Below are positions 2,767-38,581 of a DNA stretch of 52,636 bases, piece after piece. How positions within the stretch are numbered: position 1 is the stretch's first letter; each line of letters starts with the position of its first letter. A program made the translations under genes and the position numbers. Source of the stretch: an archaeon (GTDB taxonomy: Archaea; Methanobacteriota_B; Thermococci; Methanofastidiosales; NM3); the NCBI GenBank assembly GCA_004212155.1, contig RXIG01000014.1, forward strand, positions 1 through 52,636, read 5' to 3'. The notes under the pieces were generated by a model. That model ran no database searches. It saw only the letters and a program-made list of their open reading frames with translations, and had not been told where the DNA came from.

Positions 2767-2767
2767 C

Positions 2768-3718: not shown

Positions 3719-3729
3719 GGTGCCTGCTG

Positions 3730-6853: not shown

Positions 6854-6983
6854 GGTATCATACCTACCTGATTGGTCATATTTAAATATCTACTGCTGTG
6901 TTGCCTGGGCAAAAAACAGAGCCTTCAAAAACTTTGTTCAGGAAAAAAAGAAGTGGTGGGAAATAGGAAGAAAAGATGATGGT

Positions 6984-18982: not shown

Positions 18983-19645
18983 TCACCTTTGGTCTAGTCC
19001 CAAATAAAGCTTATCATATATTTTGTCCCATTTCACGCATGTCTCGATGCAACCGGTCGTATCAAGCAACACGCCCTGCACCGCTATGCCCGCGTGCTGA
19101 GCCGTCTGCATGCCCTCGAGAAGGTCGGTCGCGCATCCGACGCCCAGTACCGCTCGCGGGCGTTCGTTGGCTATGATGCGCCGCACGAACGTGCCGCCAG
19201 GCACGATGAAGACATGATAGCCCAGGGTTTCTGCCTGTTCCATGAACTGGTCTATCGTGCACTTGCCGCATCGCTGGCAGCTGATGCCGTCCTTGGCGGA
19301 AAGCTTTGCGGGGCAGTTGATCGAACGAAGGCATTGTGGGAGCACAACAAGCCGCTCGTCGACGCTCGTATCGGAAAATCTGCGCTTATGAATGTTGTTC
19401 TTGAGCGATACATCAAGCTCGTCGATAACAGAAGGCTCAAGTCGAAGGAGCTCAAAGACCTTCTTGAAAATAGGGTTGAACGTGTCTACGAGGAATGAGA
19501 GAAAGGACGGAAAGATGAACTTGCCAACGCGTAAGGACACCAAGAATTGCATGAGCCCTATCACGACAAGTATGAGGAGCACCAGAAAAAGGTATACGAC
19601 AATCTCGCCCACGAGTTGAAAGAATGATCCTGTGAAAGGGGACAT
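18983..19645 (-). CDS. DUF116 domain protein
   Basis: LPQCLRSINCPA, CQRCGKC, FIVPGG, GVGC, GC; N-terminal TM. Confidence 0.88.
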   Translation of the reverse strand: MSPFTGSFFQLVGEIVVYLFLVLLILVVIGLMQFLVSLRVGKFIFPSFLSFLVDTFNPIFKKVFELLRLEPSVIDELDVSLKNNIHKRRFSDTSVDERLVVLPQCLRSINCPAKLSAKDGISCQRCGKCTIDQFMEQAETLGYHVFIVPGGTFVRRIIANERPRAVLGVGCATDLLEGMQTAQHAGIAVQGVLLDTTGCIETCVKWDKIYDKLYLGLDQR

Positions 19646-19700
19646 GGCATTCACTATGCATATGAGGGCGATTTAGTAGATACTTAAATGTTTCTAACCG

Positions 19701-20081
19701 TGTGGATTTGCACATAAAGACAACTTTGAACATGCGGGCCCTGTCGACTGAACATAAAGTTTCTATCCTTCTTTCCCCACTTGTTATACGCTATCCCTTA
19801 CCTATCTTCTTTATGCGTTCTCATCACAGTAACTGTCTTGCACGCGTATCGAACGCGCCAGTTGGCGCTGCGAGGCGGTGCGTCAGCTGGGTCCTGTTTG
19901 TCGCCGGAGACGGCAGCGTTGTCAACGCTGACGTGAACGCTGCATACAACATAATACGAAAAGCATTCCCCGATGCATTAGCGAAGGGAATAGAGGATGC
20001 CAGCTTGCATCCGGCATGCATGCCGCTTGGCACTGCGTGCGAATGCACATGAGAAGAGACGATTTTATGTGCAAAGCCACA
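19701..20081 (+). mobile_element. Non-autonomous, internally deleted tnpB element (MITE-like derivative, IS200/605-IS607 type)
   Basis: 19708-19872 is homologous to 52391-52556; remnant NADVNAAYNIIRKAFP is the TnpB C-terminus; ends TGTGGATTTGCACATAAA (19701-19718) and TTTATGTGCAAAGCCACA (20064-20081) are 17/18 inverted. Confidence 0.85.
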
Positions 20082-20127
20082 AAACTTTATTAAGATGATA
20101 TAAACACCATCACACGGTGACAATCAC

Positions 20128-20361
20128 ATGGACTTGACCCAGGAAGAGATTGAAGAAACGGACAGGAAAAACATCAGGCTCGTCTTCGAGCGCACGGGCG
20201 TCTCTCCCTCAGAAGATGAGGTTGAAAAGACCAGGCTGGCAATGCTCAAGGCAATAGCGCTCAAGCAGATCGCGGCAAACGCACTTGTCGAAGACGATGC
20301 AGAGAACCAAGAGATGCTTATAGCCACCTACACGTCTGCGTTATGTTCGCTCCTTAAGTGA
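20128..20361 (+). CDS. Small hypothetical protein
   Basis: TTTATTAA box and GGTGA upstream; 77 aa; runs into next gene. Confidence 0.6.
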   Translation: MDLTQEEIEETDRKNIRLVFERTGVSPSEDEVEKTRLAMLKAIALKQIAANALVEDDAENQEMLIATYTSALCSLLK

Positions 20362-20366
20362 AGGCG

Positions 20367-21482
20367 ATGAGAAATCGTTATAAGCTCCTTGCGCTACTTC
20401 TCGTAGTCATAATAGCGTTCTCTTTTTATACTTTTAATCTCCAACGATACATGGCTCCCCTTTCCGCATTTGGCAATCCTGTCGAAGAGGACCATGACCT
20501 CTTCACTGTCAACATGTGGCCCAACGGGATGTCGGGTGCATGTATGGTCACGCTCGATGACATATCCTCAGGGACATCCCCTTCAGACATGTGGCTTGTC
20601 GATTCCATCCTTCAGGAATATGGTGCCCACGCGACGTTTTTCGTTATACCAGCACATGGTGGGGAATCGAATGCCATCGCTGACAACGATGATGTCACCG
20701 ATGCGCTCAGGCAACTTGTTGATAAAGGCCACGAGGTTGCGTTGCACGGCTATTCGCATACGCCCCCAAAGGAGTTGCGTGGATTGAACAAGGAAGAACA
20801 GGCCAGCCTCATAACTGCCGGCAAGGAGATGCTCATTAATTCCATAGGGCCCGTATACGGATTCAGGGCGCCTTCTTTCTGGGACAACACGTCGACACAG
20901 GTCGTGCTGGCTGAAGAGGGATTCGAGTACAACGCTGGCGCCAGCCTGTTCAACGTATATCCTTATCAACCAAAGGACCTGTTCGACCCATTTTTCGGTG
21001 ATGTCATTGACATCATCGAAGTGCCGTGCTTTCCAATAGACTATCTGGCGCACGTTACGTCGGTATCTTACAGTGAGGACCTCTACAAACTCGAGGCCCG
21101 ATTTGAGGGGTGCCATAGCAAAGGCACGCCTTTTGTGCTTTTTACCCACCTCCCTGCATTAATGGAGGTGGACTCGCACACACGCCGTCACGAAGGCTTG
21201 CTACTCCTTGATTCGTTCCTTGGATATGCCGAAGAGCAGAACGTGTGGATGCCGTCCATGATAGAATTTGTACGATGGTGGGAGTTCATTACCCAGGCAA
21301 AGATTGATTACCATATGTCGTCAAACAATCTCGTCATATCAGTGATATCGGAGGATGTCATTGAGGGATTAACGTTCAATCTTGCCCTCCCTCCGGACAT
21401 CAACGACGTGTCAGTCTATGTGAACAACGAACTCGTCTTCACACAACAGGATATCGATAGCGATGCGAGGATTATCCTTTAA
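20367..21482 (+). CDS. Membrane-anchored polysaccharide deacetylase (NodB/DUF2334-like)
   Basis: N-terminal TM, TLDD, ATFFVIP, HEVALHGYSH, GFRAPSF. Confidence 0.85.
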   Translation: MRNRYKLLALLLVVIIAFSFYTFNLQRYMAPLSAFGNPVEEDHDLFTVNMWPNGMSGACMVTLDDISSGTSPSDMWLVDSILQEYGAHATFFVIPAHGGESNAIADNDDVTDALRQLVDKGHEVALHGYSHTPPKELRGLNKEEQASLITAGKEMLINSIGPVYGFRAPSFWDNTSTQVVLAEEGFEYNAGASLFNVYPYQPKDLFDPFFGDVIDIIEVPCFPIDYLAHVTSVSYSEDLYKLEARFEGCHSKGTPFVLFTHLPALMEVDSHTRRHEGLLLLDSFLGYAEEQNVWMPSMIEFVRWWEFITQAKIDYHMSSNNLVISVISEDVIEGLTFNLALPPDINDVSVYVNNELVFTQQDIDSDARIIL

Positions 21483-22720
21483 AAGAAGATTATCTCTTTT
21501 TCTATTGCGTTTACCGCTTCTTGGTCCTTCAAGATCCTGATGGATGCGCGTTTGAGCGATGAACCCAGCCCGCGTTGTGAAACGATGATGTCATTGATGA
21601 GATCATCGATGGAGACGTACTTCCGCTCACGAATGGTGTAGAGTACATCCTGTTCGACAAATACGTCCGGATGCTTCTGTTTGAACTTTTCCGCATGAGC
21701 ATATTTTTCCACCGGTGGACCTCGGTGTTTTTCCTTCTCCGGAAGCTGGCCGATCTCTATGTCGAGCATGACGCCCTTTGAGAAGACGCCGTGGCGAAAG
21801 AGGGTAAATCCATTGTCCCCACATTCCTTCACGACGTGCTCCACGAATTTGCGTGCCTGAGCGTAAAAGACCTCTTCGATGACATCAATGTCAAAAATGA
21901 TGACTACAAACGTCCCCGCATCGACAGGTTGGTACCCTGGCCTTGGCCCAGAAAACATCCGCACGTCTTTTGTTTCTGATACCGTGCGTGCCGCTTCGAT
22001 AAACCGTGAGAAGGTGGAAAGCGACACTGCGGAGGCCACATTCCTTGTAGGGTCTACAGGGTCTACGACGACCAACGGGTCTTCAAAGCCCTTCCCGTTT
22101 CCGTTCATGTCGATGATAACACCCCGCTCCCACTGAATGGCGTGAGCAAGAAGATTGGCAAAGGAATTGTACTTTATTATAAGCAGTTCGCAGAGATATC
22201 CCGAAAAACCATTCGCTCGAGAGTCAGCACCATAGAGCTTTTGGGCCTTGAGGAATTTTTTGAGAAGGCGTACATCATCCCTTTGAGAATCGTTCAGGTG
22301 TTCCATTACATATTCGAGATGGAAGGGGGTCCTGTCGACAGCGGATCGTATGTGCCTTCCAGAGGCGACCTTGTAGCATGGCACGATTTCCACGGGTAGA
22401 CCCTCGATGTCACCAGACACATATGGGTGCTCTGCATACGCTATCTTGTAGGAAGACCCAAAATGATTGAACGTAGACTTGCCTATCCGGAGTCCTTCAC
22501 GCTCAAGGAGCTCTTTGGGAAGGGATGGGTCAAAGAAGACGAATATGTCTAGGTCCATGTCCTCTTTTAGAAATGTATCCTTTGCTACCGAACCAACAAT
22601 AATCGATTCCTTACCAAAGGATTCCAATATATATGTCTTAATATGGTTGAACAGTTTTAGGGCGTTATCCCTTTCTCCTTCCTTTGGTCTGATTCGTTTA
22701 GTTATCTTGTCAAAGTTCAT
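21479..22720 (-). CDS. cca: CCA-adding enzyme (archaeal class I)
   Basis: VGSVAKDTFL...DLDIF, YAEHPYV, SAVDRTPFH, GFSGYLCELL, DPVDPTRNVASA. Confidence 0.96.
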   Translation of the reverse strand: MNFDKITKRIRPKEGERDNALKLFNHIKTYILESFGKESIIVGSVAKDTFLKEDMDLDIFVFFDPSLPKELLEREGLRIGKSTFNHFGSSYKIAYAEHPYVSGDIEGLPVEIVPCYKVASGRHIRSAVDRTPFHLEYVMEHLNDSQRDDVRLLKKFLKAQKLYGADSRANGFSGYLCELLIIKYNSFANLLAHAIQWERGVIIDMNGNGKGFEDPLVVVDPVDPTRNVASAVSLSTFSRFIEAARTVSETKDVRMFSGPRPGYQPVDAGTFVVIIFDIDVIEEVFYAQARKFVEHVVKECGDNGFTLFRHGVFSKGVMLDIEIGQLPEKEKHRGPPVEKYAHAEKFKQKHPDVFVEQDVLYTIRERKYVSIDDLINDIIVSQRGLGSSLKRASIRILKDQEAVNAIEKEIIFF

Positions 22721-23268
22721 AGGAAGAAATCCTTGACGGTTGAGTATATTGGCCCTTTCGGAGTAAGGGTGCTTTTGACAAGGCTAAATGATGTTACATC
22801 CTGGGTGCCTATTTCTATATCGTTCAATGATTTGATGATGTCATTGACATCCTTTTTTTCGTATACGGACTTGACGCGCGCGAACGTGATGTGTGCCTTG
22901 TATGGTTTCTGTTCCTTTTTGATACCCAATGTTGCCAAATGATCATCGATAGATTGAGCCAATTCTTCGATTTTTGGTTCATTGGCACCCACCCATATGA
23001 TTTTAGGGGCAAAAGAGTGAGGAAAAGCCCCCACACCATATATATGTAGAGAAAATGGTCCAATGTCATCATGTGAGTGTTTCAATGATTTGATGATGTC
23101 ATTGATGTCATCGTCTCTCTTTTCACCGATAAACTTCAGAGTGATGTGAATGTTATCTTTTGGAACAAACTTTGCCTTGATAACATTTTCTGGAAACTTC
23201 TCATAGAGCTCTGTGATTTTTTCTTTTATTTTCTCATCAAGAGTTATGGCTACGAAAAGCCTTGTCAT
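22717..23268 (-). CDS. thpR: RNA 2',3'-cyclic phosphodiesterase (2H family)
   Basis: RLFVAI, HITLKFIG, HITFAR, STLTPKGPIY. Confidence 0.93.
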   Translation of the reverse strand: MTRLFVAITLDEKIKEKITELYEKFPENVIKAKFVPKDNIHITLKFIGEKRDDDINDIIKSLKHSHDDIGPFSLHIYGVGAFPHSFAPKIIWVGANEPKIEELAQSIDDHLATLGIKKEQKPYKAHITFARVKSVYEKKDVNDIIKSLNDIEIGTQDVTSFSLVKSTLTPKGPIYSTVKDFFL

Positions 23269-23771
23269 ACAATATCTCCATTACCCTTGCTTATAGGCAT
23301 CTTTTCCCAGGGAAAAATGATCCACTTGTCAGTTTCAAAAACATAGTAATCTGGATCAATGATGCTTTTTGGTTTCTTAGCAATAACAGCTATCTTAATC
23401 GATTTGGCTTTTTTCTCAATAATATGTTTTTTTATTGCTACAAGCGTTTTACCAGTATCAGCAACATCATCGATTATTAAAACATTCATATTTTCTATGT
23501 TTTCAGTTAAAGGAGCTGTAATTTCTGGTTTTTCCATTCTTTTTTCAATGTCTGTGTAGAATTTGACATCTACTACACGCATAAGGATATTGTCTGAGAT
23601 ATGTGAAAGCCTGACGGCAGGCACTAATCCGCCCCTTGCGATTCCAACTATTATGTCGGGCCTGAACTCCTTTTCTATTTCATCTTTGAGAGTCCATATC
23701 GCTTCATCTACTTTTGCCCAATCCAAGTACTCCTTATCCATGTCGTTCACATCGGATATTTTTGTTTTCAT
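23265..23771 (-). CDS. Purine phosphoribosyltransferase (Gpt/Hpt-like)
   Basis: IVGIARGGLVPA, VLIIDDVADTGKT, PDYY...WIIFPWE. Confidence 0.9.
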   Translation of the reverse strand: MKTKISDVNDMDKEYLDWAKVDEAIWTLKDEIEKEFRPDIIVGIARGGLVPAVRLSHISDNILMRVVDVKFYTDIEKRMEKPEITAPLTENIENMNVLIIDDVADTGKTLVAIKKHIIEKKAKSIKIAVIAKKPKSIIDPDYYVFETDKWIIFPWEKMPISKGNGDIV

Positions 23772-23825
23772 TATTTAAATATTGGTATAGGAACAAGTTT
23801 TTATATGCGTTGAGAGAAATATCAT

Positions 23826-23845
23826 GTCAAGTAAAACGCCTTGAC
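23826..23845. promoter_or_regulatory. Candidate operator, inverted repeat GTCAAG-N8-CTTGAC
   Basis: Perfect 6-bp arms between a TTTTATAT box and the ATG at 23858, in a divergent intergenic region. Confidence 0.45.
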
Positions 23846-23857
23846 TGAGGGATTTTC

Positions 23858-24259
23858 ATGAAATACTCCTTTGAGTACATAGAAAAATGGATAGAAACTG
23901 ATTCTTTTGCTAATAAATTATTGAATATTAGTTATTTTTCTAAAATACAATTAAAAGATTATGTTTCATACATATGGAACAAGGAATTTGGAGATAATGT
24001 CACTCTTATAGAGCTTGCTGAACATCGAAATGTATCAAAACAGGCTATTTCTGACAACATACGACTTGCAAAGGACAATGTTGACAAGGCAATGGCCACC
24101 TTTATTTTGGGAGTTTACGCAAACCTTATCCCTCTAGAATCGATCATGATCTACATGGAATTATTGGAATTGTTAAGGGATGCAAAAGAAAGTGAAAGTG
24201 AATTGGCCTTTCAAAAAATGAGAAAAAAGATGATGATAATTTTGGATGAATTATTATGA
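23858..24259 (+). CDS. HTH DNA-binding protein (YlxM/sigma70-region-4-like)
   Basis: TLIELAEHRNVSKQAISDNIRLA resembles a YlxM-type HTH; GAGG SD. Confidence 0.72.
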   Translation: MKYSFEYIEKWIETDSFANKLLNISYFSKIQLKDYVSYIWNKEFGDNVTLIELAEHRNVSKQAISDNIRLAKDNVDKAMATFILGVYANLIPLESIMIYMELLELLRDAKESESELAFQKMRKKMMIILDELL

Positions 24260-24319
24260 TGTCAATAACATCTTAATGATATCATTGATGTTATTGATAT
24301 CTTCGTCACATCACCGATG

Positions 24320-24928
24320 TTATACTGCGTTGTAGATGAATTCCTTGCCTTTGCGTGTTCTTGTAAGATATCCTTTCTTGTGTAGTGTCTTGAGGGTTCT
24401 TGATATATGTCCTTTCGACATGCCCGTTTCTTTTGATATCTGTTCAGATGTGATGTTATTTTTGTACTTTGAAAGGATGCCCTCTTCGAATTCTGTTAGA
24501 TCCTCATCGGATGTTTCCTTGGGCGTAATCTTAGTTTCCTTCTCTTTCAGGGCAAAATCTATGAATTTATCTGTTATTTGATGCTGTGAATCCTTTATTG
24601 TCTTAACATCTTCTTCAATGAAGCTCATTTCTTTTTTGAGCAGATTTAATTCATCTTTATACACTACTTTTAGCATATCGTTATCGATTTCTACCATTTT
24701 TTCTGCTAATTTGTCGAGCTTAAATTCTTGTTTTTCTGTAGTTGCATCCAAGTTTTTTATATCACTTTTTATATTTTGCACTTCTGAGAACAAAGACCGT
24801 ATATCAGTGCGTAATGCTCGTATATTTTCGTCATCATGTTTTTCGACGACTTCTTTGAGTTTAGATATCTCCTCTTCAAGGTGAGTGTCCGGTTCTTTTT
24901 TCAGTCCAAGAAATGATAGAAGCCCCAT
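24320..24928 (-). CDS. Amphipathic-helix / coiled-coil / C-terminal winged-helix protein
   Basis: N-terminal MGLLSFLGLKK; heptad-rich central region; LTEFEEGIL...TSEQISKETGMSKGHISRTLKTLHKKGYLTRTRKGKEFIY. Confidence 0.8.
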   Translation of the reverse strand: MGLLSFLGLKKEPDTHLEEEISKLKEVVEKHDDENIRALRTDIRSLFSEVQNIKSDIKNLDATTEKQEFKLDKLAEKMVEIDNDMLKVVYKDELNLLKKEMSFIEEDVKTIKDSQHQITDKFIDFALKEKETKITPKETSDEDLTEFEEGILSKYKNNITSEQISKETGMSKGHISRTLKTLHKKGYLTRTRKGKEFIYNAV

Positions 24929-24949
24929 AATATGCTTTAGGTAATTATC

Positions 24950-24965
24950 TTTTAAATAACTTTCG
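24950..24965 (-). promoter_or_regulatory. BRE-TATA promoter of the coiled-coil wHTH gene, abutted by a repeat copy
   Basis: Minus strand reads CGAAAGTTATTTAAAA 22-37 nt upstream of ATG 24928; GATGTCATTGA at 24968 lies immediately upstream. Confidence 0.6.
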
Positions 24966-25085
24966 ATGATGTCATTGAAATATCGTTGAATATGATTTTT
25001 ACTTGTTTTTTAATATTTCTTTTATAAACACTCGGACAATATAAAATATCGATGATGTCATCGATGTTATTTGACATCAATGATA

Positions 25086-25751
25086 TTATTTGACATCAAT
25101 GACATCATCAACAATACTTATTGTTTTACACTCTCTTGTGAATATGCCGTTCTCTATAGTACCGGGGATGTTATTCAATTCCACTTCACGTGTTTTCGGA
25201 TTATCTATTTTCACCCAAAGATCTATTATGAAATTTCCATTATCAGATATCACTGGTCCGTCCTTTGCCTTAGCTTCACGCAAAATGGGGTTGCCAATCT
25301 CTGAAATACGCTTTATAACACTGGTATATGCTAGTGGTAGCACCTCTATTGGCACGGGGAATTTACTACCTAGTTGTTCAACGAACTTACTATCATCGAT
25401 AAGAACAAAAAAATCCTTAGCGCTGTAGCCTATTATCTTTTCCCGTGTCAGCGCCCCTCCCCGCCCTTTGATGAGATTTTTGCTTGGATCGACTTCATCA
25501 GCTCCATCAAAGGCTTTTTCTGGGGTGAATTCATGCAGTGTAACGATATTAATTTTATTATTTATGCATAGTTGCATTGATTGATAAGACGTCGGTACAG
25601 CATAGAATTTTTCGCCGTCTTCTATGCGCTTGCCTAGAGCATTAGCCAGATACTTGACCGTACTTCCAGTTCCCAACCCTATGACTTCTTCATCTTTGAT
25701 TAGTTGTGCAGCATATTTTCCTATTTCTTCTTTTTGCTTTTCTTTGTTCAT
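25086..25751 (-). CDS. rpiA: Ribose-5-phosphate isomerase A
   Basis: GLGTGSTV, DGADEVD, IKGRGGALTREK, PVPIEV, SDNGNFIID. Confidence 0.96.
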   Translation of the reverse strand: MNKEKQKEEIGKYAAQLIKDEEVIGLGTGSTVKYLANALGKRIEDGEKFYAVPTSYQSMQLCINNKINIVTLHEFTPEKAFDGADEVDPSKNLIKGRGGALTREKIIGYSAKDFFVLIDDSKFVEQLGSKFPVPIEVLPLAYTSVIKRISEIGNPILREAKAKDGPVISDNGNFIIDLWVKIDNPKTREVELNNIPGTIENGIFTRECKTISIVDDVIDVK

Positions 25752-26143
25752 ACTGTACAAACCTTTTTTATTAATATTAATATATTGTTCATGTAATATT
25801 TGTTTAGTTTTGAATAGGTTATCTTTATATATGGAGATTAATTAATGCATTCTACTTTTTATCTTTCTTTTTCATGACTTCACTTGAATTTACATATCTA
25901 CTGCTGGTATAATCATTTAATAGGTGATATATAGATTAATCACACATTTGAAAATTGCTTGATGGAATTTATATTTTGCATTGAGATGAGGGCAGCGTAC
26001 CTCCATTGATACACATTTGTCTTCAGTGCTTAGGAATGTGTATCTGAATGCTGTCTTAGGATCCGTTACACATGATGTCTTCGAATCGCGGTATGCGCAT
26101 GGAATCAGATACCTTTTTGAGCAATGCCTTCGATATCTGTACT

Positions 26144-27727
26144 ATGCGCCGGCACATTGTTAAGGTCTGTATTTGCTTACTCATACTCCCCTTATTTTTA
26201 CCTTCCTTGGCGTGTGCTATTGATTCTTCTGAAATAGATGAGGCTTTGGATGATGGCAATGTTACAATTCTTTTTTTCCGCGATGAAAGTTCAGTTTGTG
26301 GCATCATCATGAGCATGTTGTCCGATATCTCTTCGTCCTATGACGATGTGGATCTTATAGAGATATTTATTAGTGATAATGCTGATCTTGCAGACAGGTT
26401 CGAGGTTGGTGAACCCCCCGAGGTCCTTGTTTTTGATGGATTCGGCAGTTTGCATGAGCGCATCACCGGTGCACGCAGCAGAACATTTTATGAGGAATCA
26501 GTTCAAGGGGCCCTTGCAGCTCTAGAGAACATGAACGCTTCGGCTGATAAGTTCTATCAGAATGCCACTATTTTTTTCGATTCCGGTAAGTATACCAATG
26601 CACTTCAAAATTTTACCATGGCCGAGGAATTGTATGTTGAACTGGACAACGTCGAACGAACTTTGTTGTGCCGCATGTATATCCAAAAATGCAATAATTA
26701 TATCACTGCGCATGATCACTTGTCGCAGGCCGATGAATTATTTGAAGACGGCGAGTATGAGGATGCTGCTTTAGAGTATGATATTGCTTCTACGTACTTC
26801 GATAAGGTTAACGATGAGGAACTAATTGCATATTGTTCTCAGCAAATTGGTAGGTGTGAGCTTATCCCCTCTGCCGAGGATGATTTTTCGAGGGTTCAAG
26901 TCCTTATGGACTCTGGCCGTTACGGCACTGCTCGGCCTCTGCTCGTTTCTCTCAAGGACACGTATGCGGCCATTGGTGATGCAGAAAAAGAAGAGACAGT
27001 GTCCCAGTTGCTTACTACCTGTGACCTCTACCTTGAGGCGGATGCGTATGTCACGTCCGGATCCTCTGCCATGAGCGAGGGCAATTATGATATAGCGGTC
27101 GAAGAGTATACTGCGGCGCGAGATATATATACGGACTTGGGCGATTCTGACAAGGCTAGCATGTGTACCCAAAACATAACGCTTGCTCAGCAATATAGCA
27201 ACTCACAGACGCCCGCCCCTCCTGAAAAAGATGAAGAAGTTTTGGCGTTGGATTATCGTTATATTGCAATTGGGGCAACAGCCCTTCTCGTCATTCTCCT
27301 TTCAATCGTGTTATACAGACGTTCATCGAAAGCCTCCCGGGATTCGGGTTCAGCAATGGCCCGATTATCAGCTGGGCTGTCTTCTACCGAGCTGGAACAG
27401 GTGACCGAGCAGGAACCTGAGCCCGTTGAAGAGAACATGGAGCAAGCACATGACACATTCCTTCTGCATAGGGACAGCATTTTCGAGACAAAAAACACGT
27501 TGTTGTTCCAGTTTTCCCAATGGGTCGATGAACTATTGAATGAGATGGAAGGGGCCCAGCCGCATCAATACTTCTTTTTCAGGGGGAGATTCGAATCATT
27601 GCAGGCGTTCTTCACACGAAGTTTCAGTTCAGACGAGGAGTATATCGACCAAAGGCTCCTCTCGGATGTGAGGGATCGATTGCATGAATGCCAGTCCCGC
27701 CTCAACGATTTGATGGATCTTGTGTAG
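26144..27727 (+). CDS. Secreted/membrane-anchored thioredoxin-fold (SxxC) + TPR-like repeat protein
   Basis: Signal peptide, ESSVC, LADRFEVGEPP, helical repeats, single TM (YIAIGATALLVILLSIVLY), cytoplasmic tail. Confidence 0.72.
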   Translation: MRRHIVKVCICLLILPLFLPSLACAIDSSEIDEALDDGNVTILFFRDESSVCGIIMSMLSDISSSYDDVDLIEIFISDNADLADRFEVGEPPEVLVFDGFGSLHERITGARSRTFYEESVQGALAALENMNASADKFYQNATIFFDSGKYTNALQNFTMAEELYVELDNVERTLLCRMYIQKCNNYITAHDHLSQADELFEDGEYEDAALEYDIASTYFDKVNDEELIAYCSQQIGRCELIPSAEDDFSRVQVLMDSGRYGTARPLLVSLKDTYAAIGDAEKEETVSQLLTTCDLYLEADAYVTSGSSAMSEGNYDIAVEEYTAARDIYTDLGDSDKASMCTQNITLAQQYSNSQTPAPPEKDEEVLALDYRYIAIGATALLVILLSIVLYRRSSKASRDSGSAMARLSAGLSSTELEQVTEQEPEPVEENMEQAHDTFLLHRDSIFETKNTLLFQFSQWVDELLNEMEGAQPHQYFFFRGRFESLQAFFTRSFSSDEEYIDQRLLSDVRDRLHECQSRLNDLMDLV

Positions 27728-34846: not shown

Positions 34847-35965
34847 ATGACTGAGTTTAGGGTCACGCCGTGGGATGTCGAGGGCGACATCGACTACAAG
34901 AAGCTTATCGAACAGTTCGGCACGCAGCCGATCACCGACGGGCTTATCGAACGCGTGGAGACCCTTGCTGGCCATGTCCATCCACTCCTGCGCAGAAAGA
35001 TATTCTTTTCTCACAGGGACTTCGACTGGATCCTCTCCCTCTACGAGAAGGGGGAGCAGTTTGCCCTCTACACAGGCAGGGGCCCCTCCGGCCACACGCA
35101 CCTGGGCCACATCCTCCCCTGGATATTCACCAAGTACCTGCAGGATACGTTCGGATGCGAATTATGGTTTCAGCTGACCGATGACGAGAAGTTCGTCCTC
35201 TCGCCCCATCTTACCATCGACGATACGATCAGCTTCTCATACGAGAACGCCCTTGACATCATTGCCCTTGGCTTCGATCCCGAGAAGACGCATATCTTCT
35301 CCGACCTCGATTATGCCAAGACGATGTATAGGCATGCCTTGCAGGTGGCAAAGCGCGTCACGTTCTCTACCGCCAAGGCGGTGTTCGGATTCGATAACTC
35401 GACCAACATCGGATTGATATTCTTTACCTCGATGCAGTCCGTTCCCGCATTCCTGCCATCTATTATGCAGAAGAGGAAAGTGCCAGTGCTCATACCGAGC
35501 GCGATCGACCAGGACCCACACTTTCGTGTCACGCGCGACGTTGCAGAAAAGCTGGGATACTACAAACCCGCGCTCATACAGAGCATGTTCCTTCCTTCGC
35601 TGCTTGGTCCAGACTCGAAGATGTCTGCATCAAAGAGCGGGTCGGCCATCTACACCGTCGACTCACCCAAGGTTGCAAGGAAGAAGGTCATGAACGCATT
35701 CACCGGCGGGTGTCAGTCCCTCGAGGAACAGCGCGTTCAGGGTGGAAATCCCAACATCTGCACCGTCTACCAATATCTCTACATCCTCTTCGAGGAAAGC
35801 GATGCTGACCTTGCCCGCCTCAAGGAGCGCTGCCTGAGCGGCGAGGAGATGTGTGGCAACTGCAAGAAGCTGCTTGCCGCCAAGGTGTCAGAGTTCCTCA
35901 AAGACCATCAGGCAAAGCGGGAAAAGGCGCGCGATCGTATCGACGAATTCATGCTTTCCGACTAG
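34847..35965 (+). CDS. trpS: Tryptophan--tRNA ligase
   Basis: VTPWDV, YTGRGPS..HLGH, AIDQDPHFR, KMSAS. Confidence 0.96.
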   Translation: MTEFRVTPWDVEGDIDYKKLIEQFGTQPITDGLIERVETLAGHVHPLLRRKIFFSHRDFDWILSLYEKGEQFALYTGRGPSGHTHLGHILPWIFTKYLQDTFGCELWFQLTDDEKFVLSPHLTIDDTISFSYENALDIIALGFDPEKTHIFSDLDYAKTMYRHALQVAKRVTFSTAKAVFGFDNSTNIGLIFFTSMQSVPAFLPSIMQKRKVPVLIPSAIDQDPHFRVTRDVAEKLGYYKPALIQSMFLPSLLGPDSKMSASKSGSAIYTVDSPKVARKKVMNAFTGGCQSLEEQRVQGGNPNICTVYQYLYILFEESDADLARLKERCLSGEEMCGNCKKLLAAKVSEFLKDHQAKREKARDRIDEFMLSD

Positions 35966-37346
35966 ACGCCCGCTTCTTTCGTATGTAATAGATGAGCGGA
36001 TTCGTGATCTTTCGTCTCCCTACGAGCTTGTTCTTCGAAAGCGTCTGCAGCAGGGGCGCCACCTGTTTCTTGTCGAGGCCGAGCTCCTCGGCGATGGCAT
36101 CACGGGTTCGTGAGCGTTTGAGCAGCAGTGCGAGCACCTGCTCCCCCTCGGCCATCCGCTCCTTCGCAGCCGCCTTGTTGACCACCTCCTCGGCGCGTTC
36201 CCGGTCGATGACGCCCCATGTCACCTGGCTGCAAAACGCATCAGGCTCGCACAGTTGCGGGGCGTTCTCCGCGATCTTCGTGCATGACGGGGGAAGATAC
36301 CATTTCGACTTGCCGTAATCTGCCGCCGTCGGCGTCTCGGTCATGCCGAATCCGAGGTGGTAGAGGATATTGAGCTTTTCAAGCGGCTGCTCCTTGAAGA
36401 AGGGGGGGTCGCACCGATCGCCTGCTTCGATGATCTCGGGCACCACCTCGTCGAGGAGTATCTGCACGTCCTCCTGGGAGAGAGTGAACGAGCTCTCCCT
36501 GTCAAAGACCTTCGTTGACGGGATCAGCCGGGCGTATGAGAGAAATGATGTGAGCAAAAACGTGATGGCGTAGTTCCTCTGTCCCGACGAAACGCCGCCA
36601 AGCGCGATGCGAACGCACGGAGGAAAGAGCTCCTCCTCGAGGTCGCCCGATGCTGTCCGTTCGATACGCGTCTCCGTCTTGAGCAGCGCCTTGACCTTGG
36701 AAGATATCTTCTCGTAGACCGGATGGTTCACCCCTTCCATCCTCGTCGAAAGTCCGTGCACATAGTCGTAGCACCGTTTCCTGACGACCTTGCTGTATAG
36801 GTCAAAGAGCTCCCATTTCGTAAGGTAGAGATAGCCGTCGACGATGTACTGGCGCGTGATGTCCGTTACCTCGTACACATCGGTCCATACGACCGCGTAC
36901 TCCACCTCGCTGCGCCTCATCGTCTTGAGCCTGAAGAGGTCTTCGCGAGGGAGGATCGTGCCCATGCCTGGCAAATCCACCGCCTTGCTGAGAGGCCTGT
37001 CGGCCACCATGTGGTCCTTGATGTAGTATATGGGAATAAGCGTTCGCATCTCCTCCAACACGTCATCGGAGAAGTGCCATGAGAGGCGTTCCTTTAACAG
37101 GTGCTCATACGCGTTTAGCGCCGCGTACACCTCTGGTGCATGCGGGTGCTGCGCCAGGCTCTGGAGCAGCAAGAAGAGTGATATGGCGTCGTCCCGTTCA
37201 TCAAGGTCTACGTATTTGTCGTTGTTCTTCTCGTTGGATCGCGCAATTGAGAGGCGTACGAGCGACTGGTCGATGTCGTTGAGATCGATTGTCAGGAGGT
37301 CTTTTACGCGTTCCGAAAAGGGATTGACAAGCACCATCGTAATCAT
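35949..37346 (-). CDS. priL: DNA primase large subunit PriL (Thermococcales-like) with inserted winged helix
   Basis: FPPCV...RNYAITFLLTSFLSYAR, HLGFG, WYLPPSC.KI...LC.PD..C, NPLIYY; GGAGG before ATG 37346. Confidence 0.9.
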   Translation of the reverse strand: MITMVLVNPFSERVKDLLTIDLNDIDQSLVRLSIARSNEKNNDKYVDLDERDDAISLFLLLQSLAQHPHAPEVYAALNAYEHLLKERLSWHFSDDVLEEMRTLIPIYYIKDHMVADRPLSKAVDLPGMGTILPREDLFRLKTMRRSEVEYAVVWTDVYEVTDITRQYIVDGYLYLTKWELFDLYSKVVRKRCYDYVHGLSTRMEGVNHPVYEKISSKVKALLKTETRIERTASGDLEEELFPPCVRIALGGVSSGQRNYAITFLLTSFLSYARLIPSTKVFDRESSFTLSQEDVQILLDEVVPEIIEAGDRCDPPFFKEQPLEKLNILYHLGFGMTETPTAADYGKSKWYLPPSCTKIAENAPQLCEPDAFCSQVTWGVIDRERAEEVVNKAAAKERMAEGEQVLALLLKRSRTRDAIAEELGLDKKQVAPLLQTLSKNKLVGRRKITNPLIYYIRKKRASSRKA

Positions 37347-37372
37347 CTCGTATCCTCCGTTATTAATTGTTT

Positions 37373-38581
37373 CTAAATCGTGAACGAAAGCACCGGGACG
37401 AGCAGGAACGCCATGAGTGTCGTCCGATGCACACCCATCAATGGGGGGAGCATGCCAATGCTTGCAGCCACTGCGCACATCACAAGCCCGCGGTAACCAG
37501 CAAGCGCGGCGATAGCCAGCACCTGTATGGCAATGCCGGTGATCGAGAGTTTCGCATAGTCGATACGAGTGGCATACGCGAGAAGCGGCGAGGCAAGCGC
37601 ATGTAAGGTGGCGAAGGCCGCACCTGCCGCGCATACCATGGTCGCGACGAGGATGCACATATCGTGATGTGTAAGTGACCCGAGAAGCTCCTGCACCTGC
37701 ACGAGCGCCCCGTTGCGCGCCTTGTCGAACTGAAAGAGCACGAGAAGCGCAAAGAGCGCGTTGGCCGTGTTTATCGAACAGCATGTCGCAATGAACGAGC
37801 GTGCCGATCCCGCCCTCTGGCCGAAGAGCTGTGCGATGACGGCGGCCTGGCTCGCTCCAACACCAGGCAGCGTCGCAACGAGTGATCCGGCGATCGTTCC
37901 CCTCGCACACGACGACACGATGGCGTGCCTTGGCAGGAGCATGGTCGCGTCCCGGTCCTGTTCAGGGATGCGCGATGTGGTGCCGAGGCTCACGAGAAGC
38001 GTGCTTATCCCGAAGAATCCGCTGAAGATAGGAAAGAGAGGGTCGCTTCCGAACCACGGAGACCCGAACACGATGCATCCGTAGGCGCCACTCAGTGCGA
38101 ATACGGACCCAGCGCACGCCCTTGTTTTCCAGGTATGGTGCACGAACACGGTCAGCAGCGAGCACCAGACGAGCAGGAGTGGTGTCGCATACCGTATGAA
38201 CGGGTAGAGGCTTGAAAGTGCTGCCATCACGAGTGGCACGGAAGACACGATCACCACTACGGCAAACAGGCTTGCGATGCCTGACAATCGTATCGCCTCC
38301 ATCCCTCGCCCCTCCCGCATCATCCTGTGTGCCGGCAGGACGGCGAGCGCAGTCTCCGCATCGGGCACCCCGAGGAGCGTGGCAGGCAAGAAGTCGATGA
38401 ACGTATGTGTTATCGAAAGGGCGCACACGAACACTGCGGCTCCAAGCGCCGGTGCTTCGATCAACGTCGCTAGCGTTGCCGCAAGCGGCGCTGCCGTATT
38501 CACGTGAATTCCCGGGACAAGCCCGGTCGTAACACCACATACGAAGCCGAGCGCGGTAAGCATCAGCATTGTCGCATCCAC
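37373..38581 (-). CDS. Archaeal TctA-like tripartite tricarboxylate transporter permease (COG1784)
   Basis: TGLVPGIHVN, HTFIDFLP..LLGVPD, LPAHR, GFFGISTL, LPGVG. Confidence 0.88.
   Translation of the reverse strand: MDATMLMLTALGFVCGVTTGLVPGIHVNTAAPLAATLATLIEAPALGAAVFVCALSITHTFIDFLPATLLGVPDAETALAVLPAHRMMREGRGMEAIRLSGIASLFAVVVIVSSVPLVMAALSSLYPFIRYATPLLLVWCSLLTVFVHHTWKTRACAGSVFALSGAYGCIVFGSPWFGSDPLFPIFSGFFGISTLLVSLGTTSRIPEQDRDATMLLPRHAIVSSCARGTIAGSLVATLPGVGASQAAVIAQLFGQRAGSARSFIATCCSINTANALFALLVLFQFDKARNGALVQVQELLGSLTHHDMCILVATMVCAAGAAFATLHALASPLLAYATRIDYAKLSITGIAIQVLAIAALAGYRGLVMCAVAASIGMLPPLMGVHRTTLMAFLLVPVLSFTI

What the first reader, a model, noticed from the sequence alone, without database searches (positions are those of the whole stretch)
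20691..25109. Candidate centromere-like/chromosome-anchoring locus: repeat field written through housekeeping genes around two orphan DNA-binding genes
Seen: GATGTCATTGA occurs exactly at least 7 times in about 4.1 kb (21000, 21354, 21587, 22837, 23095, 24968 on +, 25096 on -). Under uniform composition about 0.002 copies are expected, and I noticed no exact copy elsewhere in the window by eye. Variants form GATGTCA-N-TGACATC palindromes (21000, 22837, near-perfect at 24258) and 9-bp tandem arrays (23095-23113, 24278-24301, 25054-25109). Most copies lie inside unrelated CDSs on both strands (deacetylase DVIDI, Cca INDII, ThpR NDIIK twice, RpiA DDVID), so selection appears to act on the DNA. 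Density peaks on both sides of a coiled-coil/wHTH gene that converges with a YlxM-like HTH gene. Established: clustered sites plus a cognate binder define parS/ParB, ram/RacA, NBS/Noc, matS/MatP, and iteron or WhiP-type origins. Inference: an undescribed archaeal segregation or anchoring system, or a non-Cdc6 origin. No parA/segA or cdc6 is present in the window.
Basis: partly seen in the sequence, partly recalled or inferred. Interest (0 to 1): 0.9.

Follow-up and report, generated by a model that had tools for sequence, protein, structure and literature searches.

The report
Origin-proximal binding-site array with tether-like protein
A small family of uncultured archaea carries, close to its replication origin, a unique AT-rich stretch of genes overwritten with a repeated DNA motif that always travels with one coiled-coil DNA-binding protein, which looks like a device for holding or organising that part of the chromosome.

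Summary
GATGTCATTGA occurs 7 times in window 21000-25106 (shuffles: 0.04) and 4 times in the remaining 1.49 Mb. The unit is a TCAWTGA core repeated every 9 bp.

Every locus that encodes the 202-aa coiled-coil/wHTH protein (24320-24928, minus) shows the same gene order, motif cluster and GC valley: the window, 2 related genomes and 7 metagenome contigs, one of them a duplicate. Nine loci that have only the neighbouring HTH gene show none of these.

Sites inside thpR, cca, rpiA and the deacetylase gene sit at homologous positions. They have reshaped the encoded peptides relative to 5 outgroup genomes.

The canonical ORB/cdc6 origin lies 32-46 kb away on the same contig in both relatives, and about 33 kb away here by synteny. 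This is therefore not the Cdc6 origin.

The protein models as a short hydrophobic-basic N-terminal peptide, a 114-residue helix and a C-terminal wHTH. Remote homologues carry a transmembrane helix at the N-terminus.

Best reading (0.42): an autoregulated, origin-proximal nucleoprotein complex that tethers or organises the chromosome, analogous to RicO or RacA. Binding, membrane contact and function are all inferred.

The parts
24320..24928 (-). wHTH202: a 202-aa protein with an N-terminal MGLLSFLGLKK peptide, one long helix (residues 15-128), a disordered linker (129-145) and a C-terminal MarR/TrmB-type winged helix (146-201). It is the proposed binder of the motif.
   Evidence: ORF. Pfam MarR_2 scores 30.4 bits against a cut-off of 27, at residues 158-192. 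AlphaFold2 model with mean pLDDT 82.4. Only 16 relatives were found in 5.8 billion proteins. The gene co-occurs with the motif in every locus examined.
24961..24980 (.). Operator-like 20-bp palindrome TTTCGATGATGTCATTGAAA. It abuts the TATA-like TTATTTAAAA (24950-24959, minus strand), about 20 nt upstream of the wHTH202 start codon.
   Evidence: Read. The same palindrome (TTTCGATGAYRTCATYGAAA) sits at the same place in 7 of the 7 loci that include this spacer: W, L010, L011, L059, L062, L063 and L065. It is the top matrix score in the window, 28.0 bits.
24981..25048 (.). AT-rich spacer between the operator and the rpiA-end array.
   Evidence: A spacer of similar length and composition is present in all lineages.
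25049..25111 (.). Array A2: five matrix sites in 9-bp register, on both orientations. It overlaps the last codons of rpiA (…DDVIDVK).
   Evidence: I1, I2. Matrix hits at 25049, 25068, 25077, 25087 and 25096. An equivalent array lies at the rpiA 3' end in L010, L011, L059, L062, L063 and L065.
24253..24306 (.). Array A1: four matrix sites that fill the spacer between the stop codons of the convergent HTH133 and wHTH202 genes.
   Evidence: Matrix hits at 24253, 24273, 24282 and 24291. The equivalent spacer is filled with units in L010, L011, L059, L061, L062, L063 and L064.
23081..23114 (.). Sites inside thpR (first lobe, encoding DDINDIIKSL). They are part of a 25-nt stretch that is identical to 22823-22847.
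   Evidence: D6, 100% identity; 23090, 23099; homologous position in 3 of 3 f1 genomes; a different peptide and 0 hits in 5 outgroups.
22823..22851 (.). Site inside thpR (second lobe, encoding DVNDIIKSL).
   Evidence: 22832.
21582..21609 (.). Sites in the 3' end of cca (encoding …IDDLINDII…).
   Evidence: 21582, 21594; the same region carries motif hits in L010 and L011; the outgroups have unrelated peptides there.
21876..21891 (.). Site inside cca (encoding DIDVIE).
   Evidence: 21.8 bits. This site is present only in the window's lineage.
20995..21019 (.). Palindromic double site inside the deacetylase gene (encoding GDVIDIIE).
   Evidence: 20995, 21004; the homologous DDIDIIE site in L011.
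21354..21364 (+). Exact 11-mer inside the deacetylase gene (encoding EDVIEG). It is a half-site only.
   Evidence: It is not among the matrix hits above 10 bits. Motif hits lie in the same region of the gene in L010.
20686..20701 (.). Weak outermost site inside the deacetylase gene (GATGTCACCGA).
   Evidence: 2 mismatches; 14.5 bits.
22300..26600 (.). GC valley. Third-codon-position GC falls from 0.66 to 0.32 and rises back to 0.54, centred on HTH133/wHTH202 and running through syntenic housekeeping genes.
   Evidence: genome mean GC3 0.67, sd 0.09. The same valley appears in every wHTH202 locus long enough to show it (L010, L011, L060, L062, L063) and in none of the 9 loci without wHTH202.
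23858..24259 (+). HTH133: a conserved 133-aa helical HTH protein that converges on wHTH202. It is a neighbour, probably not part of the system.
   Evidence: It is present without motif or valley in 9 loci.

Best explanation
The locus is the single chromosomal docking region of a lineage-specific DNA-binding protein, wHTH202.

Proposed mechanism:
- Dimers or higher oligomers of its C-terminal winged helix bind a TCAWTGA core repeated every 9 bp.
- One palindromic site abuts the gene's own TATA box and gives autoregulation.
- About 18 further sites lie in two arrays at gene 3' ends and inside four neighbouring housekeeping genes. Together they nucleate a large nucleoprotein complex over about 4.4 kb.
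- The 114-residue helix (about 17 nm if straight) ends in a conserved hydrophobic-basic peptide. It connects this complex to another structure, most likely the cell membrane.
- The origin-proximal part of the chromosome (32-46 kb from oriC) is thereby held or organised, as RicO/ricS and RacA/ram do in bacteria. A role as a loading or stalling point for SMC is a variant of the same idea.

Shown: the cluster, its uniqueness, its conservation, DNA-level selection, co-occurrence with the gene, and its position near oriC.

Inferred: that wHTH202 binds the motif, that its N-terminus contacts the membrane, and that the complex serves anchoring or segregation.
For: 1. Unique cluster. It holds 7 of the genome's 11 exact 11-mers and 12 of its 20 matrix sites above 18 bits, within 0.4% of the genome.

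2. The same holds in relatives, using TCAWTGATGTCA with up to 1 mismatch. G004 has 14 of 82 genome-wide hits within 6 kb. For G002 my own scan places 16 hits within 3.7 kb, against a genome total of 52; the two counts come from different tools. G000 has 9 of 57.

3. Co-occurrence. The motif cluster and the GC valley are present in the window, in G002, in G004 and in 7 of 7 metagenome loci that encode wHTH202; L060 repeats G004. Both are absent from 9 of 9 loci that have HTH133 but not wHTH202, where the 16-mer pattern gives 0 hits.

4. Conserved architecture: operator at the TATA box, AT-rich spacer, array at the rpiA end, and an array in the convergent spacer.

5. Only one site lies at a promoter. 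The others are at 3' ends or inside coding sequence.

6. The in-gene sites sit at homologous positions. The peptides they encode (NDII, DVID) replace unrelated peptides seen in 5 outgroup genomes that have 0 motif hits.

7. Synonymous constraint. Columns were defined in the window and tested only among 4 other lineages. Codons were identical in 92 of 157 cases (59%) in those columns, against 1653 of 3740 (44%) elsewhere. The lineages are related, so the p-value of 4e-4 is overstated.

8. Protein architecture. Among 34 remote profile hits, 10 have an N-terminal hydrophobic segment of transmembrane strength, 8 of them small proteins of 170-240 aa. P0059, P0043 and P0048 instead start with short hydrophobic-basic peptides like the one here. 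One source labels P0004 'uncharacterized membrane protein'.

9. Position. cdc6 with ORB boxes is on the same contig 32 kb (G002) and 45 kb (G004) away. Contigs C5 and C16 of G000 are collinear with that stretch, which puts the locus about 33 kb from oriC.

10. Precedent. RicO has a DNA-binding domain, a coiled coil and a membrane-binding helix, and binds nine origin-proximal sites. SegB sites are mostly intragenic and lie near the segAB locus.
Against: - No binding, localisation or phenotype data exist; the organisms are uncultured.
- The N-terminal peptide is not amphipathic by helical moment (muH 0.09-0.25, among the lowest 11-mers of each protein). It is too short for a transmembrane helix and has pLDDT 55.
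- No ParA-, ParM- or TubZ-type partner lies in the locus.
- The family is tiny: 16 proteins, full length only in family f1 among 133 genomes of the phylum. It cannot be a general archaeal mechanism.
- Nearness to oriC amounts to one evolutionary observation, with a chance of about 5% for a random place.
- A site at its own promoter is what any autoregulated transcription factor has.
- The GC valley has no demonstrated link to binding.
Confidence: 0.42

Rival explanations
1. wHTH202 is an ordinary autoregulated local transcription factor or small nucleoid protein. It represses its own promoter, and perhaps read-through into hpt-thpR-cca and rpiA. The additional sites are auxiliary operators, roadblocks or decoys with no role in chromosome positioning.
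For: - The best site abuts the gene's TATA box in all lineages.
- The wHTH belongs to the MarR/TrmB/ArsR class of regulators.
- KfrA-type coiled-coil proteins are first of all autoregulators (abstract).
- No motor partner lies nearby.
Against: - About 18 of 19 strong sites are not at promoters. They are conserved at 3' ends and inside coding sequence at a cost to protein sequence.
- The promoters of hpt/HTH133 (23772-23857) carry no site above 10 bits.
- This reading does not explain the long stalk, the conserved N-terminal peptide, the transmembrane helices in remote homologues or the GC valley.
Confidence: 0.28
2. The locus is a chromosome-architecture element without a membrane link. An array of stiff wHTH202-DNA complexes on AT-rich DNA loads or stalls Smc-ScpAB near the origin, as TrmBL2 does on AT-rich DNA at a domain boundary in Thermococcus kodakarensis.
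For: - The wHTH is TrmB-like (PF01978, E 1.9e-4 here and stronger in remote homologues).
- TrmBL2-dependent positioning of Smc correlates with AT content in a member of the same class (abstract and passages).
- The site is unique, origin-proximal and AT-rich.
Against: - wHTH202 has no homology to TrmBL2 beyond the wHTH, and no Smc data exist for these organisms.
- This reading does not explain the conserved N-terminal peptide or the transmembrane helices of remote homologues.
Confidence: 0.14
3. The locus is a second, Cdc6-independent replication origin. The arrays and the operator flank an AT-rich unwinding element, and wHTH202 acts as an iteron-binding initiator, perhaps derived from an integrated plasmid.
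For: - Binding-site arrays flank a 68-bp AT-rich spacer next to the binder's gene.
- wHTH202 is an insertion between HTH133 and rpiA relative to the outgroups.
- In G004:C2 the cumulative GC skew has a local minimum in the 35-40 kb bin that holds the locus.
Against: - A canonical origin with 3-4 ORB-like boxes, cdc6 and polD lies 32-46 kb away in all three genomes. The window has 0 ORB boxes.
- In G002:C47 the cumulative skew minimum is in the 70-75 kb bin, at cdc6, with no turn at the locus. The window shows no turn either.
- The protein has no ATPase, helicase-loader or Rep-like domain.
- The sites extend 4 kb into genes, which iteron origins do not do.
Confidence: 0.07
4. The cluster is not a functional element. 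It is produced by codon usage for Asp-Val-Ile / Asn-Asp-Ile peptides, by a small mobile repeat, or by assembly error.
For: The motif reads as DVI or NDI in frame, and the 9-bp period equals three codons.
Against: - Only 4 exact copies occur in the other 1.49 Mb.
- The peptides are absent at these positions in 5 outgroups.
- Half of the sites are intergenic.
- The positions are conserved among lineages whose housekeeping proteins are only 42-63% identical.
- Independent assemblies carry the same arrays.
- No RNA family matches.
Confidence: 0.01

Closest known systems
RicO / ricS of Staphylococcus aureus (bioRxiv 10.64898/2026.03.06.710092; abstract and section 8 read)
   Same: A three-part protein with a sequence-specific DNA-binding domain, a coiled coil and a short membrane-binding peptide. 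[quoted passage not shown]
   Different: - The domain order is reversed: RicO has the DNA-binding domain at the N-terminus and an amphipathic helix at the C-terminus.
- RicO has nine sites spread over about 700 kb. Here there are about 19 sites in 4.4 kb.
- RicO is bacterial. Homology was not tested because no RicO sequence was at hand.
- The peptide here is not amphipathic by moment.
RacA / ram sites of Bacillus subtilis (recalled, no call)
   Same: A winged-helix protein with a coiled coil that binds clustered inverted repeats near the origin and anchors it to a cell structure.
   Different: - RacA has a MerR-type N-terminal domain and anchors through DivIVA at the pole during sporulation.
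- Its sites are GC-rich and spread over hundreds of kb.
- No MerR domain was found here.
ParB / parS and Noc / NBS (review abstracts listed; details recalled)
   Same: Palindromic sites lie near oriC, many inside genes, and nucleate a large complex. Noc also binds the membrane through an N-terminal peptide.
   Different: There is no ParB/CTPase domain and no ParA next door. The motif is unrelated, and the sites form 9-bp arrays.
SegB sites of Sulfolobales (bioRxiv 10.1101/2025.02.07.637068; abstract read)
   Same: An archaeal site-specific protein whose sites are predominantly intragenic and concentrated near its own gene. It localises at the cell periphery, hinting at a membrane tether.
   Different: SegB works with the ParA-type SegA encoded beside it and has sites scattered over the chromosome. 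Here there is no adjacent ATPase, and the cluster is single and tight.
KfrA-type plasmid proteins (PMC7821693; abstract read)
   Same: A globular DNA-binding head with a long coiled-coil tail. It autoregulates at its own operator, polymerises on its sites, and has a proposed role in DNA positioning.
   Different: KfrA is encoded on bacterial plasmids, has its head at the N-terminus and acts at a single operator. No homology was tested.
TrmBL2 of Thermococcus kodakarensis (PMC11840125; abstract and passages read)
   Same: A TrmB-class winged helix in the same class of archaea. It forms stiff nucleoprotein structures on AT-rich DNA that position Smc-ScpAB.
   Different: TrmBL2 binds tens of loci and has no long N-terminal coiled coil or anchor peptide. 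Only the wHTH is alike.
Iteron centromeres of plasmids, ParR/parC and TubR/tubC (recalled, no call)
   Same: Short direct repeats in two blocks flank the promoter of the binder's gene, are bound cooperatively, and the binder represses itself.
   Different: Those systems have a motor gene (ParM, TubZ) in the same operon and repeats of 11-12 bp. No motor gene is present here.

Membership tests
MarR/TrmB-type winged-helix DNA-binding proteins | A winged helix-turn-helix domain that matches the family profiles | tested here: met
   PF12802 MarR_2 scores 30.4 bits (cut-off 27) and PF01047 MarR 26.0 bits (cut-off 24.6), at residues 156-193. Foldseek's best chains are ArsR/MarR wHTH proteins, but only at E >= 5e-3.
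MarR/TrmB-type winged-helix DNA-binding proteins | The canonical MarR fold, with dimerisation helices on both sides of the wHTH (recalled definition) | tested here: not met
   The model has one 114-residue helix, a disordered linker and a bare wHTH at the C-terminus.
ParABS (parS centromere) | A ParB/Spo0J-type domain in the binder | tested here: not met
   No ParB-like family appears among the 16 Pfam matches of wHTH202 or the 1 match of HTH133.
ParABS (parS centromere) | A ParA-type ATPase encoded with it | tested here: not met
   AAA_31 and CbiA matches above the cut-off lie on C5, C15 and C22, not in the window.
ParABS (parS centromere) | Sites clustered near oriC | tested here: met
   The locus is 32 kb (G002) and 45 kb (G004) from the ORB/cdc6 origin, and about 33 kb here by synteny.
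Archaeal Orc1/Cdc6 origin (oriC) | ORB boxes flanking an unwinding element, next to orc1/cdc6 | tested here: not met
   The window has 0 matches to TTCCAGTGGAAAC with up to 2 mismatches. The boxes and cdc6 are at G000:C5:337-605 and 554-1936.
RicO/RacA-type origin-membrane tethers (functional class, not a homology family) | A sequence-specific DNA-binding domain joined to a coiled coil | tested here: met
RicO/RacA-type origin-membrane tethers (functional class, not a homology family) | A membrane- or pole-binding element at the far end of the coiled coil | tested here: inconclusive
   The MGLLSxLGxKK peptide is conserved. Its helical moment is low. Of 34 remote homologues, 10 have a transmembrane-strength N-terminus and 3 have similar short peptides.
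RicO/RacA-type origin-membrane tethers (functional class, not a homology family) | The protein binds the clustered sites and positions the origin | not testable with these tools
   This needs EMSA or ChIP and microscopy. Here it is inferred only from co-occurrence.
Iteron partition cassettes (ParR/parC, TubR/tubC) | Repeat blocks around the binder's promoter | tested here: met
   The operator and array A2 lie upstream of the gene and array A1 downstream.
Iteron partition cassettes (ParR/parC, TubR/tubC) | An actin- or tubulin-like motor in the same operon | tested here: not met
   All neighbours are assigned: hpt, thpR, cca, rpiA, a TPR membrane protein and HTH133.

The most novel reading that the evidence does not exclude
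This would be a chromosome-membrane tether (a minimal centromere-like device) in a euryarchaeal lineage that works without a ParA-type motor. A single origin-proximal domain of about 5 kb has its binding sites written through housekeeping genes. It is coated by a membrane-anchored coiled-coil winged-helix protein. The V-shaped GC valley, maintained in lineages whose genomes range from 41% to 55% GC, would be the evolutionary footprint of that permanent nucleoprotein domain. It could arise from selection for many weak AT-rich sites, or from locally altered repair or recombination. That would parallel the AT-rich centromeres of eukaryotes.
Probability: 0.25. Interest if true: 0.85.

Novelty: new variant of a known kind. 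Interest (0 to 1): 0.68.

Why it matters
How archaea other than Sulfolobales hold and separate their chromosomes is largely unknown. The abstracts read and listed say so.

This locus offers a compact, testable cis/trans pair: a defined 16-20 bp site, two arrays, and a 202-aa protein with separable anchor, stalk and DNA-binding parts. It sits next to a well-marked origin.

It is also an unusually clear case of a DNA signal overriding protein sequence in four unrelated housekeeping genes. It shows a local base-composition valley that persists while the rest of the genome drifts by 14 GC points.

There is a practical point as well. The valley appears to be dropped from fragmented genome bins, taking essential genes (rpiA, cca) with it.

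Tried and rejected
- Homodimer prediction for wHTH202 (2 copies, alignment A1): no verdict, score 0.04 against a mark of 0.42. It gives no evidence either way, so parallel and antiparallel pairing remain open.
- Foldseek against the PDB found nothing at E <= 0.001 for wHTH202 or HTH133. The best HTH133 rows are UPF0122/YlxM structures at E 0.097.
- The pdb_via_wide search was not run because the machine was busy.
- GC skew on long contigs is dominated by gene orientation. It marks cdc6 in G002:C47 but is ambiguous in G004:C2, where local minima fall both at the locus and near cdc6, and flat in the window.
- The helical-moment test for an amphipathic N-terminal helix was not met.
- Rfam found no family in 20000-26500.
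- Sequencing runs listed no RNA holder.
- Laid contigs of 4 runs show related strains. A change at 24261 (G to A) appears in 4 of 4 runs and one at 24973 (C to T) in 1 run, both at degenerate motif positions. Only 40 of 450 differences were printed, so I draw no conclusion on conservation from this call.
- My first synonymous-site test (148 of 219 against 2492 of 5883) defined motif codons in both sequences being compared, which is circular. I replaced it.
- The other low-GC islands of the genome are single surface, secreted or transport genes (an S-layer-like protein, an InhA-like protease, ArsP with MarR) and are not like this valley.
- A profile search of 133 genomes of the phylum found full-length relatives only in G000, G002 and G004. 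The other 9 hits match only the wHTH inside longer open frames of 272-1918 aa.
- In 4 fragmented genomes of the same family, wHTH202 and HTH133 were not found. rpiA was also missing in 4 of 4, and cca was found in 1 of 4, cut at a contig end. The whole region is therefore unassembled there, and this is not evidence of absence.
- Literature: searches gave no paper describing this motif, protein or locus. 'Methanofastidios' together with 'chromosome segregation' occurs in 4 papers; the 3 listed are unrelated by title.
- Rows left out:
  - A1 used 15 of 17 sequences. P0001 is 98% identical to the window protein, and P0002 is a fragment.
  - A2 used 20 of 25 sequences.
  - Of 18 metagenome loci I analysed 7 (L059-L065). 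The other 11 match only 22-39 residues of the wHTH.
  - The outgroup comparison used 5 genomes that I chose for completeness (G007, G008, G009, G012, G013).
  - The codon test used 5 lineages (W, L010, L011, L062, L063). The others were too short or duplicates.

Full report
**Observation.** Shuffles expect 0.04 copies. The window is contig C16 of a 1.49-Mb, 28-contig assembly that is 89.8% complete. The whole assembly holds 11 copies, so 7 of 11 lie in 4.1 kb. Reading the sequence and the repeat tables shows that the 11-mer is part of a longer pattern. A 7-bp palindromic core, TCAWTGA, recurs every 9 bp as (TCAWTGAYR)n. Two adjacent units form a 16-bp palindrome, TCAWTGAY·RTCAWTGA. I trained a matrix on 47 sites from related loci only. 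It finds 12 of the genome's 20 sites above 18 bits, and 19 of 65 above 14 bits, inside C16:20000-26000. With local composition as background the region has 19 sites above 10 bits, against a mean of 0.32 and a maximum of 3 in 200 block-wise dinucleotide shuffles.

**Genes.** The order in the window is as follows:

| Gene | Coordinates | Strand |
|---|---|---|
| DUF116 | 18983-19654 | - |
| 77-aa ORF | 20128-20361 | + |
| DUF2334/polysaccharide deacetylase | 20358-21482 | + |
| CCA-adding enzyme (cca) | 21479-22720 | - |
| LigT/ThpR (thpR) | 22717-23268 | - |
| phosphoribosyltransferase (hpt) | 23265-23771 | - |
| HTH133 | 23858-24259 | + |
| wHTH202 | 24320-24928 | - |
| RpiA (rpiA) | 25086-25760 | - |
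| TPR membrane protein | 26072-27727 | + |

Sources label close homologues of the two small proteins as Candidatus Methanofastidiosia or Methanofastidiosa.

**Conservation and co-occurrence.** Two related genomes encode wHTH202: G002 (same genus) at 57% identity and G004 (same family) at 64%. Both show complete synteny from DUF116 to the TPR protein, the same motif cluster and the same dip in GC. Hits to TCAWTGATGTCA with up to 1 mismatch are distributed as follows:

| Genome | Hits in the locus | Hits genome-wide | Span of the locus hits |
|---|---|---|---|
| G000 | 9 | 57 | C16:21008-25102 |
| G004 | 14 | 82 | 6 kb |
| G002 | 16 (my scan) | 52 | 3.7 kb |

A scan of metagenome contigs gave 18 loci. 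Seven of them (L059-L065) encode true orthologues at 51-66% identity. All seven show the same gene order and the same motif, and those longer than a few kb show the GC dip. L060 repeats G004. In L062 the GATATCA variant of the unit dominates.

HTH133 is more widespread. Nine further loci (L012-L020) have titles naming Theionarchaea, Methanofastidiosia and 'Thermococci archaeon'. They encode HTH133 but not wHTH202. In three of them HTH133 converges directly on rpiA. None has a motif cluster (0 hits to the degenerate 16-mer in all nine) or a GC dip. Motif and valley therefore travel with wHTH202, which looks like an insertion between HTH133 and rpiA. They do not travel with HTH133.

In four fragmented genomes of the family neither small protein was found. 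rpiA is also missing in 4 of 4, and cca is found in 1 of 4, cut at a contig end. The region is simply unassembled there.

**Architecture.** The layout is the same in every lineage:
- A 20-bp palindrome, TTTCGATGAYRTCATYGAAA (24961-24980 in the window), abuts a TATA-like element about 20 nt upstream of the wHTH202 start codon.
- An AT-rich spacer of about 70 bp follows.
- An array then overlaps the last codons of rpiA (25049-25111).
- A second array fills the spacer between the stop codons of HTH133 and wHTH202 (24253-24306).
- Further sites lie inside thpR (two, within a 25-nt stretch identical between the gene's two lobes), near the 3' end of cca, and inside the deacetylase gene.

Only the first of these sites is at a promoter. 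The divergent hpt/HTH133 promoter region has no site above 10 bits.

**Selection on the DNA.** The in-gene sites occupy homologous positions in the three genomes. Five outgroup genomes of the same order lack wHTH202. Their ThpR, Cca and RpiA carry unrelated peptides at these positions and have 0 motif hits. Examples are ThpR residues 53-60 (DDINDII against eehrldei and others), Cca near residue 390, and an RpiA C-terminal tail that ends in D(D/N)(V/I)IDV only in this family. The DNA motif has therefore shaped the proteins, not the reverse.

I also ran a test that avoids circularity. Columns were defined by the window's motif, and comparisons were made only among four other lineages. Identical amino acids use the same codon in 92 of 157 cases in those columns, against 1653 of 3740 elsewhere. 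The lineages are related, so the p-value of 4e-4 is overstated.

**GC valley.** GC3 runs 0.66, 0.64, 0.58, 0.54, 0.43, 0.34, 0.32, 0.35, 0.35, 0.49 from DUF116 to the TPR gene, against a genome mean of 0.67 (sd 0.09). The valley floor is 0.27-0.34 GC per kb in lineages whose flanks are 0.41, 0.48 and 0.55 GC. It is therefore maintained and is not a fading trace of transfer. The genome's other low-GC islands are single surface, secreted or transport genes. What maintains the valley is unknown. Selection for many weak AT-rich sites, or a local bias in repair or recombination under a permanent protein coat, are inferences.

**The protein.** AlphaFold2 with 15 sequences gives mean pLDDT 82.4. It predicts a short N-terminal helix, one continuous helix over residues 15-128, a disordered linker over 129-145, and a winged helix over 146-201. 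The recognition-helix region (SKGHISRTLK) and the N-terminal MGLLSxLGxKK are nearly invariant. The family has 16 members in 5.8 billion proteins and 2 representatives in the 50%-clustered library.

A profile search adds 34 remote hits. Of these, 10 have an N-terminal hydrophobic segment of transmembrane strength, and 8 of those are small coiled-coil-plus-wHTH proteins of 170-240 aa. Three others begin with short hydrophobic-basic peptides (MGLLGFLKLKKK, MNLLFWKRK, MQFFFWKK). Of the 10 remote hits I scanned, 9 match TrmB/MarR-type wHTH families. This recurring layout of anchor, stalk and DNA-binding domain is the main argument for a membrane link.

The N-terminal peptide itself is not amphipathic by helical moment. 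The homodimer prediction gave no verdict.

**Position.** The only Cdc6 gene of G000 is at C5:554-1936. It is preceded by three ORB-like boxes around an AT-rich stretch and followed by both PolD subunits.
- In G002 the boxes and cdc6 are at C47:70.6-72.1 kb and the locus is at 103.8-104.4 kb.
- In G004 they are at C2:84.2-85.6 kb and the locus is at 38.9-39.5 kb.
- C16 of G000 is collinear with G002:C47:80,977-127,057, and C5 (reversed) with 71,868-50,045. The locus here is therefore about 33 kb from oriC, with roughly 9 kb unassembled between the two contigs.
- The window has no ORB box.
- The cumulative GC skew of G002:C47 has its minimum in the 70-75 kb bin, at cdc6. G004:C2 is ambiguous and the window is flat.

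**Reading.** The data fit a single docking region for wHTH202. It is autoregulated at its own promoter and built of about 19 sites that mostly lie where no promoter is. It is kept in place at a cost to four housekeeping proteins and sits close to the origin. The protein's stalk ends in an anchor-like peptide.

The nearest working models are RicO/ricS, RacA/ram and Noc (recalled), SegB and KfrA. An SMC-positioning role like that of TrmBL2 on AT-rich DNA is a variant. None of these is homologous as far as tested, and the ParB, ParA, MerR and ORB features are absent. I file the locus as a new variant of a known kind, with 0.42 confidence in the tether/organiser reading. The rivals are a plain autoregulated regulator (0.28), a membrane-independent architectural element (0.14) and a second origin (0.07).

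**Limits.**
- All genomes are metagenome bins.
- The lineages are related, so counts across them are not independent.
- No binding, localisation or expression data exist; no RNA holder was listed.

Noticed in passing
G000:C5:330-6900 (not in the window): This is the canonical origin region. Three ORB-like boxes (337, 561, 605) surround an AT-rich stretch, followed by cdc6 (554-1936) and the small and large PolD subunits (1930-3501, 3491-6892). Clusters of 3-4 boxes stand upstream of cdc6 in G002:C47 and G004:C2 as well.
   Followed up: yes
window 1-52636 and G000:C5: Contigs C16 and C5 are neighbours by synteny with G002:C47 and G004:C2. About 9 kb between them is unassembled in G000.
   Followed up: partly
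G001, G003, G005, G006 (same family): Four fragmented bins (120-250 contigs) lack rpiA (0 of 4). cca is present in only 1 of 4, cut at a contig start (L088). The low-GC valley seems to be lost in assembly or binning and takes essential genes with it.
   Followed up: partly
window 23858-24259 (+): HTH133 is the best-conserved protein of the locus, at 76-80% identity where cca is 52-55%. It belongs to a small family (24 proteins) found in Methanofastidiosia- and Theionarchaea-labelled records. It is all-helical, with only weak likeness to YlxM/UPF0122: Pfam E 3.8e-4 (21.1 bits, below the 22.7-bit cut-off) and Foldseek E 0.097. Its function is unknown.
   Followed up: partly
window 22823-22847 and 23081-23105: The two lobes of thpR carry a 25-nt stretch that is 100% identical, encoding (I/V)NDIIKSL(K/N). 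It extends beyond the motif core by about 10 nt. This may reflect gene conversion between the lobes or a longer composite site.
   Followed up: no
window 19655-20127: The spacer between DUF116 and the 77-aa ORF is 474 bp here but about 140 bp in G002 and G004. An ORF at 19702-20052 ends in a peptide that I recall as resembling the C-terminus of TnpB-type proteins, but Pfam gave no match.
   Followed up: partly
G000:C5:19300-22000 (L046:2346-4955): A low-GC (0.31-0.38) gene for an 869-aa S-layer-like protein holds the single highest-scoring isolated motif site of the genome, at C5:21569 with 28.5 bits.
   Followed up: no
window 24261, 24973: Related strains in oil-field and sediment metagenome contigs differ at degenerate motif positions. 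G to A at 24261 occurs in 4 of 4 runs, and C to T at 24973 in 1 of 4. No insertion or deletion was listed inside the arrays. Only 40 of 450 differences were printed.
   Followed up: partly
window 26072-27727 (+): The TPR551 protein has a signal/TM-like N-terminus, TPR repeats, a second hydrophobic segment and an acidic C-terminal domain. It is syntenic with the locus in all wHTH202 lineages and also lies beside HTH133 in L012, at 32% identity. It might be a membrane partner, but this was not tested.
   Followed up: no
window 35952-37961 (-): The DNA primase large subunit lies 11 kb from the locus, among tRNA-modification and translation genes (Trm1, FtsJ, endonuclease dU, a class I aaRS, an Elp3-like radical SAM protein).
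   Followed up: no
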